Assembly: GCA_050012475.1 (NCBI GenBank)
Contig: JBEKHC010000088.1
Span: 1-21,413 of the forward strand
DNA from: Candidatus Velthaea sp.
GTDB taxonomy: Bacteria; Vulcanimicrobiota; Vulcanimicrobiia; Vulcanimicrobiales; Vulcanimicrobiaceae
DNA: 21,413 nt
Reading direction: 5' to 3'
Part shown: piece after piece, positions 1 through 3,000 of the stretch
Layout: the number at the start of each line of letters is the position of its first letter
Position numbering within the stretch: position 1 is the first letter of the stretch
Program-made: the position numbers

Positions 1-3000
1 CGAACACGTCGTAGCGCGTTCCCGTGTCGGCTGCGACGAAGTACGACATGTTTTCCACCACGCCGAGAATCGGCTTCTTGAGCTGATGGATGAGGTTCGC
101 CGCCTTGCGCACGATCATCGTGGCCAACCGCTGCGGCATGGTGACGAGCACGACGCCGTCGATGTCGAGCGACTGCAGCACCGTCAGTGGAGCATCCGAT
201 GTGCCCGGGGGCAGATCGATGAGCAGCACGTCGAGATCGCTCCAGAGCACCTGTTCGTAGAATTGGCGGATGACGCCCGACAAGATCGGCCCGCGCCAGA
301 TCATCGCGGTGTCTTCCTTGTCGGTGAGCAAATTCGAACTGACGATTTCGATAGCGGACCGCGTGCGAGCCGGCACCATGAGCGGTTTGGGCGGTTGTCC
401 GGGAGCAACGTTGGGATCGCTCTCGATCGCCAGCGGCAGCGTGAGACCGAACAGCCGCGGGATCGACGGCCCCGTGATGTCGGCGTCGAGAATGCCGACC
501 CGTTTGCCGGCGCGCCGCAGTCCGACGGCGAGCAGCGCGGTCGTCAATGATTTACCGACGCCGCCTTTGCCCGACATGACCGCAACGACGTGACCGAACT
601 TCGCGCGTCGTGCGAATTCCGTAGGCGCACGGCGTGCGGGTGCTCGGTCTTCGTTCATGATCGTGGGTACACGGCCCGACAAACGCGCTTGCTGAAGTGC
701 GGTGACGATCGGTTCCGAACGCAGGCCGTGTGACTTGGCGCCGGCGGCGATCGTCTCATACTTGTTGACTCCGCAACCGGAACAGGCAAGGCCGAACTGG
801 CCGAGAACATCGGCGGCAATCGGCAGCGCCTCCACGAGTTCGCGAATATTCGTTTGGGGTGTTATCTCAAAAACCGGCATGAAGCGTGGACTACAACCTT
901 TCGCGCCAGCGGCGCGTATGATAATTTCGGACGACCTTTGTGTCGGACAGTTCCGGCCCGGCCGGAAGGAGGTGCGACCTTGGGAGCATTCGCCGCGTTG
1001 ACGATTCCGCTCGACTTGTCACGGCCTGGTGCCGGTACTCTCGCTCTGGCTGCCGCGCAATCGACGGCGGGATCGACCGACGTCGCGATCGATGTTGCGC
1101 ACAACGAGCTCACGATGAAACTCCAAATGCCGGGCAACATCAAATCGATTATGAATCGCCTCAAGGCTGCGGGGTTTGCGATTCCTCCCAAGATCCGCGC
1201 CGTGGTTCCGGTCCGATCGCTAGGACTACCCGATCGACGTCCGGACGTCCCCCATATGCTCGCTCAAATCAATGCCTCGGAGCATGTAAGCGACGCTTCG
1301 CTAGACGGCGCTCAACTGACGGCGATGATCGGTCCGTCGTCCAAGGGCCTGTACCAGATTTACTGGTCGCTCATCCACGCCGGCCTGATGGCTCAGGACA
1401 CGCCGACACTCCCCGCTCTCCGAGGACTCTAGTTCTGCTCGTCTCGACCCACTCCCCGACTCCGGATGCACCGAGCTACACCGACGACACGCTCATTATC
1501 GGCGGCGGTGTGGCCGGGCTTGCCGCTGCGAAATTTCTCGCCGATGCCGGCCGCCGCGCGACGGTGCTCGAGAAGCGCGGCGTCTTAGGCGGAAAGCTCT
1601 CGTCGTGGCGCGATCGCGACGGCGACATCCTCGAAACGGGCTTACACTCGTTTTTTGGCGGGTACGACTTTCTTCATGAGCTCCTACGGGACGTCGGGAT
1701 CTCGCACCACGTCCTGTGGCAGCCGCATACGCTCACCTTCGCGATGCCGCCGGGGTTTTCCAACCGCGTCGGCGCGCAGGCGATTTTCGAAGAGTTTCAT
1801 TTCGTCGACGCCCCGTCGCCCTTGAACGGCGTCGGCGCGGTGCTCAACGCGAAATACGTTTTCAACGCGTTCGAGAAGCTGCTGTTCGCGACCGGAACGC
1901 TGCCGGTGCTCACCGGCGACCAGTCGTACGTCGAGCGTCAGGACGGCCTCACGTACGCCGATTGGCATCGCCGGCGCAAGATGTCCGAACACATGCTGGC
2001 CACGTTTTTCGCGCCGATGGCCTTGGCATTGAACTTCACTCCGGTCCAGCAGATTTCAGCCGGCGCGATGTTGCGCGTGATGGCGTATTTCGCCAGTTCA
2101 AAGAATGCGAGCCGGGCGGGATTTCTCGACGGGCCGCCGGTCGAACGTCTGATCGATCCGATCGCCGAGTATTGCCGCGAGCGCGGTCAGGTTGTCGAAA
2201 AGGATGCGCGCGTCGGCGAGCTGTTGTTCGAGGGCGGCCGCTGCATCGGCGCGCGCTGCACCGATGGCCGCACGTATTATGCCGCCAACGTCATCATCGC
2301 GACGCCGGTCCACAACGCCGCGCAGCTTTTGCCGGCCGAGATGCTGCGCGACCCGCTCGTCGCCGGCGTCGGAAAACTCACGTCGTCGCCGGTCATCAAC
2401 GGCCACTTCTGGTTCGACCGGCCCGTCTCCAAGCACACGAATTTGATTTTCGGAGCCGGAACGCTGCTGCCGGTTCACGCCGACCTCGGTCAGGCGTCCG
2501 CCGGTTACGAGTGGCCCGGAAAATCGTTCATCGAGGTCTGCATCGCCCCGGCCGACGAGCTCATGAAGCTCGACAACGACGCGGTGATCGATCTGGTGAT
2601 GCGCGATATGCATCGGCTCTATCCGCTTGCGACCAAGGAGTCACTGGTGAAAGCGAAGCTGGTGCGTGTGCCCAAGAGCGTGCACCGCGCGGTACCCGGC
2701 GCGGAACGGTTACGGCCGGGCGCGCGGACTCCGGTCGGCAACCTCTTCTTGGCGGGATGCTACACCAATCATCGGTTCCCGGCCAGCATCGAAGGCGCGA
2801 TCCGTAGCGCCCGGTATGCCGTGGACGGCGTCCTGGAATTCGCCGGTGCTCGGACTTAAACCAGGACTCGCCCTCGCCCCCGCCGAGGCGCCCGAGAGCT
2901 CGTATCTCGACGACTGCTACCGCCATTGCCGGGACATCGCCCGCAGCAATTCGAAAACGTTTTACCTTAGCTCGCTCTTCTTGTCGCCGGAGAAACGGCG

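What a model noticed while it worked through the whole genome (the two positions that open the first line are those of the whole stretch)
980..1432. Phototroph-only 150-aa protein that travels with the puf operon: tandem HMA-like fold without metal-binding cysteines
g03942 (150 aa; no Pfam, NCBIfam or Swiss-Prot match) belongs to a family found in practically all, and only, the pufM-bearing Vulcanimicrobiaceae. It mostly lies within a few kb of pufLM and is doubled where the puf operon is doubled. The model is two ferredoxin-like beta-alpha-beta-beta-alpha-beta units of the heavy-metal-associated (HMA) type. The protein has no cysteine at all, so it is not a CxxC metallochaperone. It is a candidate new accessory factor of the type-II reaction centre of this lineage, for which the tables show no PuhA (H subunit) gene.
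Evidence so far: Matches (E<1e-6) are in 30 of 300 other family genomes. Of these, 28 are among the 29 with pufM; it is missing only in G274, 89% complete. The other two, G310 and G404, are bins 80% and 71% complete, and G310 also has the phototroph-only regulator. It lies 1.5-8.1 kb from pufM on the same contig in 21 genomes, 18-23 kb away in G376 and G145, and on another contig in 5 fragmented bins. G045, G126, G139 and G130 have two copies, each 1.5-2.1 kb from one of their pufM copies (coordinates from calls 148 and 101). In G000 it lies 2.7 kb before pufB, next to crtI-crtB. There are 52 clusters in 5.8e9 proteins, all 'hypothetical'; the named ones are Ca. Velthaea. AF2 with 26 sequences gives pLDDT 86 [...]
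(Added by a program. Inside this text positions count along the whole contig: contig position 1 is position 1 of the stretch shown here. "Call 12" and the like, gene names such as g00115 and contig names such as C1 are that model's own, and its searches are not shown. The text may have been shortened before it was handed on; [...] marks where a part breaks off. The agent that wrote the report below was given it as the finding of a first reader that could run no searches.)

Follow-up and report, generated by a model that had tools for sequence, protein, structure and literature searches.

The report
Candidate cap protein of H-less photosystem
A small unnamed protein carried by the light-using members of this soil bacterial family, and by almost none of their other relatives, is predicted to sit on the inner face of their photosynthetic reaction centre, where other bacteria carry the H subunit that this family lacks.

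Summary
It has no Pfam, NCBIfam or PDB sequence match and no cysteine.

Its family is in 30 of 347 other family genomes, and pufM is in 29. Twenty-eight have both. The one pufM genome "without" it (G342) carries a partial copy at the cut end of its puf contig. G166, which has the gene but no pufM, has a BchH-like gene and a contig that ends where pufBA should follow. G258 is a real open exception.

Nine non-phototroph relatives keep mrp|crtI-crtB but have no room for the gene. It therefore follows phototrophy, not carotenoid synthesis. It sits in at least five gene orders, always co-oriented with crt/puf.

Both halves fold as beta-alpha-beta-beta-alpha-beta units. The first is clearly HMA-like (Z 10.4) and the second weakly so (Z 7.6).

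New here: a complex model of PufL+PufM with the protein scores 0.70 against 0.02 for the best control. It places the protein on the cytoplasmic loops of L and M.

Best reading (0.55): a soluble, non-homologous stand-in for the H subunit, or an acceptor-side assembly factor. All evidence is computational.

The parts
967..972 (+). Shine-Dalgarno AGGAGG, 7 nt before the TTG start
   Evidence: read directly from the sequence
980..1432 (+). gene of the 150-aa protein (here called X); stop TAG at 1430-1432
   Evidence: 52 homologous clusters. Found in 30 of 347 other family genomes.
980..1210 (+). residues 1-77: first ferredoxin-like unit, HMA-like, no CxxC
   Evidence: AF2 elements E4-10 H18-27 E32-38 E43-49 H54-63 E72-77. 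VIA Z 10.4, rmsd 1.9 A over 68 residues to CsoZ, with HMA-type domains filling the top 30 rows.
1127..1138 (+). residues 50-53, the (F/M)-P-G-N loop before helix 2. P51 and G52 are invariant family-wide, and the loop lies in the predicted contact with PufL 115 and PufM 244
   Evidence: alignments A2 and A5; interface list
1199..1399 (+). residues 74-140: second ferredoxin-like unit
   Evidence: Folded alone: pLDDT 86.8, E2-7 H17-26 E30-36 E39-44 H49-60 E63-65. Best match CsoZ at Z 7.6; by my count 14 of the top 20 rows are HMA-type domains, but no Z reaches 8.
1391..1429 (+). residues 138-150, C-terminal tail AQDTPTLPALRGL. Invariant among close relatives but different or absent in distant ones; low model confidence
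2..880 (-). divergent neighbour: Mrp/ApbC-type Fe-S carrier ATPase with an N-terminal DUF1858 domain. Present beside crtI-crtB in non-phototrophs too, so it marks the locus and is not a partner
1435..2859 (+). crtI (phytoene desaturase family), directly behind X. No ATG/GTG/TTG between the stop of X and the GxGxxG motif, so the start is uncertain
2900..3742 (+). crtB (phytoene synthase); start not fixed (the frame is open from 2666)
4182..4568 (+). pufB (4182-4370) and pufA (4383-4568), light-harvesting beta and alpha
   Evidence: tblastn maps
4597..5418 (+). pufL. Residues 3-13, 113-115 and 205-208 are in the predicted contact with X
5446..6459 (+). pufM. Residues 229-248 (loop between helices D and E) are in the predicted contact with X
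6459..7442 (+). pufC (tetrahaem cytochrome)
   Evidence: CxxCH motifs in the translation

Best explanation
X is a soluble cytoplasmic protein made of two ferredoxin-like (HMA-type) units that have lost any metal site. It binds the cytoplasmic, quinone-iron side of the PufL/PufM heterodimer of the H-less type-II reaction centre of phototrophic Vulcanimicrobiaceae.

In the model, unit 1 (the loop around G31 and the Q49-M-P-G-N53 loop) touches the conserved N-terminus of L, the B-C loop of L and the D-E loop of M. Helix 2 of unit 2 (Y125, H133, G135) touches the D-E loops of L and M. X thus straddles the pseudo-twofold axis, where purple bacteria carry the globular domain of subunit H.

The likely role is that of a non-homologous stand-in for H: a cap that stabilises or shields the acceptor side, or a factor needed while that side is assembled.

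Shown here: the gene is real and conserved, it tracks pufM and not crtB, it keeps its link to crt/puf through several rearrangements, and the lineage has no recognisable PuhA.
Inferred: binding (a model that passed its controls), the site, and the role.
For: (1) Phyletic coupling.
- X is in 30 and pufM in 29 of 347 other family genomes; 28 are shared.
- G342, the one pufM genome 'missing' X, has a partial copy at the cut end of its puf contig.
- G166 has X-crtI-crtB on a contig that ends where pufBA should follow. It also has a BchH-like gene, which the non-phototroph G345 lacks.
- X and pufM vary together inside genera g14, g37, g67 and g77.

(2) X does not follow carotenoid synthesis.
- Close crtB orthologues (61-72% identity) are in at least 31 genomes without X or pufM.
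- All 9 mapped ones have mrp|crtI-crtB (mrp|crtB in G316), with 35-277 bp where X would lie, and no X ORF.

(3) The link survives rearrangement. The orders seen are:
- mrp|X-crtI-crtB-pufBALMC;
- X-crtB-pufBALMC;
- X-crtB-crp-like...pufBALMC;
- crtI-crtB, an opposite-strand gene, then X 367 bp before pufB (G302);
- pufBALMC-X, duplicated together with puf (G022, G023, G033, G162).
X is always on the same strand as puf/crt.

(4) No H subunit.
- PF03967 is over its cut-off in 0 of 348 genomes.
- The phototroph G250 (94% complete, one contig) has no PRC-barrel match at all.
- Ward et al. 2019 say the same for WPS-2 (passages of PMC6664022).

(5) Complex model of PufL+PufM+X.
- ipSAE 0.70 (runs 0.68, 0.72, 0.70) against 0.02 for the best of 3 controls.
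- That mark was reached by 116 of 157 solved complexes and 2 of 215 mismatched pairs.
- Partner pLDDT 80-81; the runs share at least 80% of their contacts.
- My own 15-row alignments were used, so the tool says these counts hold only roughly.
- No like complex is solved: no PDB chain resembles X by sequence, and no reaction-centre chain appears among the fold matches.

(6) The contact is plausible.
- All contacted L and M residues lie in the N-terminus and the B-C and D-E loops. By hydropathy parity these are on one membrane face, the cytoplasmic face in solved homologues (established knowledge).
- X has no hydrophobic segment (maximum 19-residue Kyte-Doolittle score 1.43) and nothing like a signal peptide.
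- 6 of the 10 most conserved X positions fall in the 33-residue interface.
- Many contacted L and M residues are invariant in the family.
Against: - All evidence is computational. The complex score is the model's own confidence.
- Conservation at the interface is only marginally raised (0.533 against 0.462, permutation p 0.05). The conserved residues are Gly, Pro and Asn, which may be structural.
- X evolves fast: 25-54% identity across genera, where PufL keeps 59-83% and PufM 52-71%. The invariant C-terminal tail of close relatives is not kept in distant ones.
- The commonest neighbour of X is crtI or crtB, not puf. Where X directly precedes crtI, crtI has no canonical start codon. That suggests translational coupling and favours a carotenoid-linked role.
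- G258 has an intact X between mrp and hemL. No pufL, pufM, bchY or BchH-like gene was found there, though the bin is only 71% complete.
- Phototrophic kin share ancestry, and gene clusters may have been transferred, so 28 shared genomes are far fewer than 28 independent events.
- The H-less reaction centre of Roseiflexus works without any soluble cytoplasmic subunit in its solved structure (passages of PMC10516601).
Confidence: 0.55

Rival explanations
1. X works with the carotenoid enzymes. It would be a phototroph-specific partner of CrtI/CrtB that adjusts carotenoid supply or hands carotenoids to the LH/RC complexes. It would not be a reaction-centre subunit.
For: - X is directly followed by crtI (G000, G234, G032, G040, G166, G250) or by crtB (G237, G041, G251, G035, G164, G021) in 12 of the mapped genomes.
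- In the X-crtI arrangement, crtI lacks a canonical start codon near its N-terminus. crtI not preceded by X starts with ATG or GTG. That fits coupled translation.
Against: - At least 31 relatives have the same crtB orthologue (61-72% identity), and 8 of 9 mapped ones have crtI too, all without X.
- In G302 X is cut off from crtI-crtB by an opposite-strand gene and lies just before pufB.
- Copies behind pufC in G022 (copy 1), G162, G033 and G029 have no crt gene next to them.
- The two small ferredoxin-like units show no obvious pigment pocket (inference).
- The model of X on PufLM passed its controls. X with CrtI or CrtB was not modelled, because only one job was allowed.
Confidence: 0.15
2. 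X is an ACT-like small-molecule sensor that regulates photosynthesis genes, for instance by acting on the Crp/Fnr-type regulators encoded beside the puf operon.
For: - The whole model also matches the tandem ACT regulatory subunits of aspartokinases (Foldseek E 1e-4 to 2e-3, TM about 0.3).
- In G251, G035, G164 and G342 a second crp-like gene lies between X (or X-crtB) and pufBA.
- Fast evolution would suit a regulator.
Against: - No ACT Pfam match in any of 29 members.
- The single-domain fold search puts HMA, not ACT, on top.
- X has no DNA-binding part.
- The only family-wide invariant residues are G31, P51 and G52.
- The RC model passed.
Confidence: 0.1
3. X is a cysteine-free metallochaperone-like factor. 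It would dock transiently over the acceptor side to deliver the non-haem iron (or another metal) while the reaction centre is assembled.
For: - HMA fold.
- The predicted docking site covers the M D-E loop, which includes the invariant E235 next to H220. By likeness to purple-bacterial M these would be iron ligands (recalled, not tested).
- H92 and H133 are invariant among close relatives.
Against: No His, Asp, Glu or Cys is conserved across the wider family; H92 and H133 are lost in distant members. The family therefore shares no metal site.
Confidence: 0.05
4. X is a passenger: a lineage-specific gene that rides in the photosynthesis gene cluster and is gained and lost with it, with no direct role in the reaction centre.
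For: - The phototrophs are kin and clusters can be transferred, so co-occurrence may reflect few events.
- X diverges fast.
- G258 keeps X without any detected photosynthesis gene.
Against: - X keeps its link through at least five gene orders and is duplicated together with puf.
- In non-phototrophs X and the puf-bch block are missing on opposite sides of the retained crtI-crtB.
- The reading frame is intact in all 34 places found (the 'TAA inside' in G022 is the gene's own stop).
- The RC model passed.
Confidence: 0.12

Closest known systems
Reaction-centre H subunit (PuhA; Pfam PRCH PF03967 + PRC barrel PF05239) of purple bacteria and Gemmatimonas
   Same: X is predicted to sit on the cytoplasmic face of L/M, over the D-E loops and the L N-terminus. 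Its gene is coupled to pufLM in occurrence and position. It is less conserved than L and M.
   Different: No homology and another fold (alpha/beta ferredoxin-like, not a beta barrel). No membrane anchor. Shorter than PuhA by my recollection. No match to PF03967 or PF05239.
Tandem HMA domains of copper ATPases and metallochaperones (B. subtilis CopA N-terminus 1p6t/2rml, ATP7B WLN5-6 2ew9, CsoZ 6ff1, CopZ)
   Same: Two beta-alpha-beta-beta-alpha-beta units in tandem. Best fold matches: Z 10.4 for unit 1 and Z 7.6 for unit 2.
   Different: No CxxC and mostly no cysteine. No conserved metal ligand. No Pfam HMA match above threshold: 1 of 29 members at E 0.011. Photosynthesis context instead of metal transport.
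HMA domains used as protein-binding modules (plant HIPP/HPP proteins and integrated HMA domains of rice NLR receptors bound by fungal effectors: 8r7a, 6fu9, 5zng, 9rsv, 7nmm)
   Same: Among the best fold matches for unit 1 (Z 9.0-10.3). By their entry titles, these are cases where an HMA fold serves as a protein-protein interface.
   Different: Eukaryotic, single domains, unrelated partners. Known to me only from the entry titles.
Extra subunits X, Y and Z of the H-less Roseiflexus castenholzii RC-LH (Xin et al. 2023, PMC10516601; passages read)
   Same: Lineage-specific small proteins from unannotated or hypothetical genes that turned out to be parts of an H-less type-II reaction-centre complex.
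   Different: They are single transmembrane helices at the LH ring or RC rim. X here is a soluble two-domain protein predicted on the cytoplasmic face. No sequence likeness was found.
Tandem ACT regulatory subunits of aspartokinase (5yei, 3tvi, 3c1n, 2dt9)
   Same: Two ferredoxin-like units in about 150 residues; Foldseek E 1e-4 to 2e-3.
   Different: TM-scores are only about 0.3. No ACT sequence match. No enzyme partner nearby.

Membership tests
HMA domain (Pfam PF00403) | beta-alpha-beta-beta-alpha-beta fold superposable on HMA domains | tested here: met
   Unit 1: Z 10.4, rmsd 1.9 A over 68 of 69 residues of CsoZ, and HMA-type domains fill the top 30 rows. Unit 2: same topology but best Z only 7.6, which the tool rates as a common arrangement.
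HMA domain (Pfam PF00403) | metal-binding (G)MxCxxC motif in the beta1-alpha1 loop | tested here: not met
   The loop reads LDLSRPG. There is no Cys in the protein. 0 of 81 family proteins have CxxC.
HMA domain (Pfam PF00403) | sequence match to the family profile above its cut-off | tested here: not met
   No match for the window protein. 1 of 29 members at E 0.011, below the cut-off.
Reaction-centre H subunit (PuhA) | N-terminal transmembrane helix / PRCH domain (PF03967) | tested here: not met
   No PF03967 match. Maximum 19-residue hydropathy is 0.92 in the window protein and at most 1.43 in 15 members.
Reaction-centre H subunit (PuhA) | cytoplasmic PRC beta-barrel domain (PF05239) | tested here: not met
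   No match. The model is alpha/beta.
Reaction-centre H subunit (PuhA) | binds the cytoplasmic face of the L/M heterodimer | tested here: inconclusive
   The model supports binding but does not show it: 0.70 against a best control of 0.02. The mark was reached by 116 of 157 solved and 2 of 215 mismatched pairs. Contacts are on L 3-13, 113-115, 205-208 and M 229-248.
Reaction-centre H subunit (PuhA) | occurs with pufLM and only there | tested here: met
   28 genomes shared out of 30 with X and 29 with pufM, among 347. The exceptions are G342 (partial copy at a contig end), G166 (contig end, has a BchH-like gene) and G258 (open).
ACT domain | sequence match to ACT profiles | tested here: not met
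   None in the window protein or in 29 members.
ACT domain | fold likeness to tandem ACT regulators | tested here: inconclusive
   Foldseek E 1e-4 to 2e-3 but TM about 0.3. ACT chains are not among the top 50 of the domain-wise search.
Known RC/LH assembly factors (PuhB, PuhC, PuhE, LhaA, PufQ, PufX) | sequence match to their Pfam/NCBIfam models | tested here: not met
   No family at E up to 1 other than chance-level rows.

The most novel reading that the evidence does not exclude
Phototrophic Vulcanimicrobiaceae replaced the H subunit by an unrelated soluble protein. A metal-free tandem HMA-like protein would be a stoichiometric third cytoplasmic subunit of their type-II reaction centre. It would cap the quinone-iron side across the L/M pseudo-twofold axis, one repeat to each side. 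That would be a second, independent solution to covering the acceptor side, and a new job for the HMA fold.
Probability: 0.4. Interest if true: 0.85.

Novelty: new variant of a known kind. Interest (0 to 1): 0.78.

Why it matters
Type-II reaction centres are textbook complexes of L, M and H. The only well-studied H-less ones are those of the Chloroflexota, and no soluble acceptor-side subunit is known for any of them.

The reaction centre of the Eremiobacterota (Vulcanimicrobiota) has never been purified or solved. The best PDB match to its PufL is the Roseiflexus L-M fusion.

A lineage-specific protein that tracks pufM, and is modelled on the spot where H sits, gives a concrete and cheap hypothesis for what completes this complex. 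It bears on how the acceptor side is protected in an aerobic phototroph, and on how reaction-centre subunit sets evolved.

A cultured species, Vulcanimicrobium alpinum, carries a family member (WPS_26290). The question is therefore directly testable by mass spectrometry and cryo-EM.

Tried and rejected
- ESM Atlas look-alikes: no usable hit, and no model held.
- The search for related loci with the wide alignment A2: the tool found no stretch conserved enough. I did not repeat it, so organism names come only.
- Fused or longer forms (341-2000 aa): none among 8000 scored candidates. The tool calls this weak evidence.
- PDB by sequence: nothing better than E 0.14, and the rows are SDR reductases, so chance.
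- Internal repeat test. hhalign of half 1 against half 2 aligns the equivalent beta1-alpha1-beta2 elements, but only at E 0.0064 and probability 5.9% (A2), or E 0.049 (A1). This is inconclusive for a duplication origin.
- Programmed frameshift fusing X to CrtI: rejected. The crtI frame is -1 relative to X in the window but +1 in G234 and G250 (and the sequence).
- Promoter and terminator scan of 700-4700: no more sites than in shuffles.
- PRCH search: its 14 control genomes hold no phototroph (0 ring), so there was no positive control.
- PRC barrel as a hidden H: present in phototrophs and in the non-phototroph G345 alike, and absent from phototroph G250. It is not phototroph-specific.
- RNA. 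One metatranscriptome run (X20, kept as contigs) holds a 199-nt contig on 961-1159 (12 differences, so probably a relative) and a 164-nt contig on 1290-1453 (no difference). It also holds pieces on crtI/crtB, pufB, pufM and pufC. The tool warns that such libraries can hold DNA and that contigs show no transcript ends. This is a weak hint of expression, no more. The 164-nt contig has only 21 letters beyond the stop of X, so it does not count as bridging into crtI.
- Two of the 34 representatives are probably chance: P0081 (5176 aa) and P0083 (a 256-aa repeat protein, seen).
- Earlier notes of this scan: nothing on this place or sequence.
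Full report
THE GENE
window:980-1432:+ encodes 150 residues. It starts at a TTG that lies 7 nt behind AGGAGG (967-972). 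It has no cysteine.

No Pfam or NCBIfam model comes near its cut-off. A profile of 27 relatives finds nothing in the PDB by sequence; the best E is 0.14, to unrelated reductases.

A word-indexed search of 5.8e9 proteins gives 52 clusters at 46-91% identity. All are 'hypothetical' or unnamed, and two are labelled Ca. Velthaea. An exhaustive HMMER search of 1.84e9 cluster representatives gives 34 at E up to 1e-3, down to 24% identity. Two of these are probably chance: a 5176-aa protein, and a repeat protein seen. One cluster holds 'hypothetical protein WPS_26290' of the cultured Vulcanimicrobium alpinum. The family is thus small, real and confined to this lineage.

Among close relatives the N-terminus, H92, H133, the P51-G52-N53 loop and the C-terminal QD(T/V)PTL..LRGL are invariant. 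Across the whole family only G31, P51 and G52 are invariant, and the tail changes or disappears.

FOLD
AF2 on 27 sequences gives pLDDT 85.6 and pTM 0.79. The elements are beta-alpha-beta-beta-alpha-beta (4-77), then alpha-beta-beta-alpha, then a low-confidence tail.

Foldseek puts tandem HMA proteins on top (CopA N-terminus at E 9e-6, WLN5-6), followed by tandem ACT regulators. An all-against-48,161-chain search matches residues 1-78 to HMA domains. The best is CsoZ at Z 10.4, rmsd 1.9 A over 68 residues, and the top 30 rows are HMA-type domains.

An alignment of 25 C-terminal halves folds as a complete beta-alpha-beta-beta-alpha-beta unit (pLDDT 86.8). Its best matches are again mostly HMA domains, but Z reaches at most 7.6, which the tool rates as a common arrangement.

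A profile comparison of the two halves aligns equivalent elements, but weakly (E 0.0064, probability 5.9%).

By sequence the family is not HMA. 0 of 81 members have CxxC and 63 have no Cys. Only 1 of 29 has a sub-threshold PF00403 match.

The protein has no hydrophobic segment, and 12 of 15 members are acidic. It is a soluble, cytoplasmic, metal-site-free tandem of ferredoxin-like units.

PHYLETIC PATTERN
With the family profile, 30 of 347 other genomes of the family have a match (20 of 78 genera, with G000 and its genus counted). With PufM of the window, 29 of 347 do (18 of 78 genera). Twenty-eight have both. The family tallies include five genomes flagged as unpublished (G310, G221, G192, G297, G255); none of them has X or pufM, and no example below is one of them.

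I examined the three exceptions.
- G342 (pufM only). The puf contig is 7947 bp long. At its very end an ORF running off the contig matches the C-terminal half of the family (E 1.1e-12). The 50 residues before that do not match. This is a partial or hybrid copy at an assembly break, not a clean absence.
- G166 (X only). X-crtI-crtB lie on a contig that stops right after crtB. The bin has a BchH-like Mg-chelatase gene, as phototrophs do, and the non-phototroph G345 has none. It is most likely a phototroph with puf unassembled.
- G258 (X only, 71% complete). It has mrp|X|hemL with no crtI-crtB, and no pufL, pufM, bchY or BchH-like gene was found. This exception stays open.

In 21 genomes X lies 1.5-8.1 kb from pufM. 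In two it lies 18 and 23 kb away, and in five on other contigs. There are two copies next to two puf operons in G022, G023, G033 and G162.

PHOTOTROPHY OR CAROTENOIDS?
X most often sits just before crtI or crtB, so I asked whether it simply goes with carotenoid genes. It does not.

crtB-like genes are in 264 of 348 genomes. Close orthologues (61-72% identity) are in at least 31 genomes that have neither X nor pufM. I mapped nine of these: G345, G338, G320, G318, G340, G254, G329, G316 and G248. All have the same backbone, mrp(-)|crtI-crtB...(dprA-hemL), except that G316 lacks crtI. Only 35-277 bp lie where X would be, and no X ORF was found.

In phototrophs the same backbone carries X on one side of crtI-crtB and pufBALMC-crp-bchCXYZ on the other (window). 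Both are present together or absent together, although they flank a retained pair of genes. X and pufM also vary together within genera g14, g37, g67 and g77.

GENE ORDER
Maps of 25 loci show at least five arrangements:
- (A) mrp|X-crtI-crtB-pufBALMC (G000, G234, G032, G040; also G166 and G250, where puf is not on the mapped piece);
- (A') mrp|X-crtB-pufBALMC (G237, G041);
- (B) crtI-crtB, then a MetE-like gene on the other strand, then X 367 bp before pufB (G302);
- (C) X-crtB-crp-like...pufBALMC (G251, G035, G164);
- (D) pufBALMC-X (G022, G162, G033, G029), where the duplicated segment carries X along.

X is always on the strand of puf and crt. The link to the puf/crt block has therefore been kept through repeated rearrangement.

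NO H SUBUNIT
PF03967 (PRCH) is over its cut-off in 0 of 348 genomes, though that search had no phototroph among its controls. PRC-barrel proteins occur in phototrophs and non-phototrophs alike and are absent from phototroph G250.

Ward et al. 2019 state that no puhA was observed in WPS-2 and that the RC might lack H, as in Chloroflexi (passages of PMC6664022). Yabe et al. 2022 list only pufL, pufM and pufC for the isolate (passage of PMC9758169).

No RC of this lineage is solved; the best PDB match of PufL is the Roseiflexus L-M fusion 8iug.

I found no paper that mentions this protein:
- 'Vulcanimicrobium' with 'reaction center';
- 'Vulcanimicrobium' with 'cryo-EM';
- 'Eremiobacterota' with 'puhA';
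- 'WPS_26290'.
Subscription journals and bioRxiv supplements were not visible.

BINDING TEST
I sent PufL, PufM and X as 15-row alignments with rows from the same genomes.

The score for X against L+M was 0.70 (runs 0.68, 0.72, 0.70), against 0.00, 0.00 and 0.02 for three controls. That mark was reached by 116 of 157 solved complexes and 2 of 215 mismatched pairs. The partner's pLDDT was 80-81, and the runs share at least 80% of their contacts. The tool notes that the counts hold only roughly with my own alignments and a three-chain job. It also notes that the model supports binding but does not show it.

The contacts are:
- L 3-13, the invariant E5, Y8-R9-K10, G12 and T14 region;
- L 113-115 and L 205-208;
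- M 229-248;
- X 1-3, 27-33, 48-53, 56, 81-86 and 121-139.

By hydropathy the L and M residues all lie in the N-terminus, the B-C loop and the D-E loops. These are on one face of the membrane. In solved homologues that face is the cytoplasmic acceptor side, where H binds (established knowledge of purple-bacterial RC structures, recalled).

No transmembrane residue is touched, and X has no membrane segment. Six of the ten most conserved X positions (M1, G31, P51, G52, N53, G135) fall in the 33-residue interface. Mean conservation is only slightly higher there (0.533 against 0.462, p 0.05).

No similar complex is in the PDB, so the pass is unlikely to come from memory of a solved complex.

READING
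The best-supported explanation is that X binds the cytoplasmic face of the H-less L/M core. Its first unit would lie against the L N-terminus, the L B-C loop and the M D-E loop. Its second unit would lie against the D-E loops of L and M.

X may be a permanent subunit (a non-homologous H analogue) or an assembly or stabilising factor. That cannot be told from sequence. I put 0.55 on RC binding in either form.

The main rival (0.15) is a carotenoid-linked role. Two things favour it. One is the frequent X-crtI/crtB adjacency. The other is that crtI lacks any canonical start codon where X directly precedes it, but starts with ATG or GTG where it does not. Against it stand the many X-less genomes with the same crtI-crtB, and the puf-only neighbourhoods of X.

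The other rivals are an ACT-like regulator (0.10), an iron-delivery chaperone (0.05) and a passenger gene (0.12).

WEAK OR NEGATIVE RESULTS
- The Atlas gave nothing.
- No fused forms were found.
- A metatranscriptome run holds short contigs on X, crtB, pufB, pufM and pufC. That is only a weak hint of expression.
- Promoter and terminator scans were at chance level.
This parallels arrangement D here (X behind pufC) but is not evidence.

VERDICT
This is a new protein family, and probably a new kind of accessory subunit of a known machine. It can be tested now, because a cultured species carries a family member.

Noticed in passing
window 1430-1500; loci L045, L050, L044, L048, L046 against L032, L052, L053, L055: Where X directly precedes crtI, crtI has no ATG/GTG/TTG between the stop of X and its GxGxxG motif (window, G234, G166), or only one placed far upstream or too late (G032, G040, G250). 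crtI not preceded by X starts with ATG or GTG ('MVDTLIVGGG' in three of the four loci). This suggests re-initiation at a non-canonical codon (perhaps CTG) coupled to the termination of X. The crtI frame is -1 to X in the window but +1 in G234 and G250, so a conserved frameshift fusion is unlikely.
   Followed up: partly
window 2-880 (-): The divergent neighbour is an Mrp/ApbC-type Fe-S carrier ATPase. Its N-terminus is a DUF1858 / 'hybrid-cluster-associated redox disulfide' domain with a CSGC motif. It sits beside crtI-crtB in phototrophs and non-phototrophs alike.
   Followed up: partly
L036 (G162:C1:970000-987000): Two extra puf operons lie in inverted orientation, and only one of them has an X copy. 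In both, pufL is split into two tblastn pieces one base out of frame (3677-4171 / 4173-4505 and its mirror image). The third operon (L035) has an unbroken pufL. These may be pseudogenes or an assembly artefact.
   Followed up: no
L040, L041, L042, L062, L064 (G251, G035, G164, G342, G021): A second Crp/Fnr-like gene (about 30% identical to the one behind pufC) lies upstream of pufBA, between X(-crtB) and the puf operon.
   Followed up: no
L065 1700-2832 (+) (G302): A MetE-like ORF (cobalamin-independent methionine synthase type, judged by eye from the translation) is inserted on the opposite strand between crtB and X. X and pufBALMC are thereby set apart as their own unit.
   Followed up: no
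L063 / L051 (G258:C199): mrp|X|hemL: the whole crtI...dprA segment is missing while X stays intact. No pufL, pufM, bchY or BchH-like gene was found in this 71%-complete bin.
   Followed up: partly
window 3742-4182: A 440-bp non-coding gap lies between crtB and pufB. It is the likely site of the puf promoter or regulatory region. The consensus scan found nothing above chance.
   Followed up: partly
L044 4209-5567 (-) (G032): With the start and stop chosen by my script, PufM here is 452 aa, against 334-349 aa in the other 13 loci. It may carry a C-terminal extension. I did not examine it.
   Followed up: no
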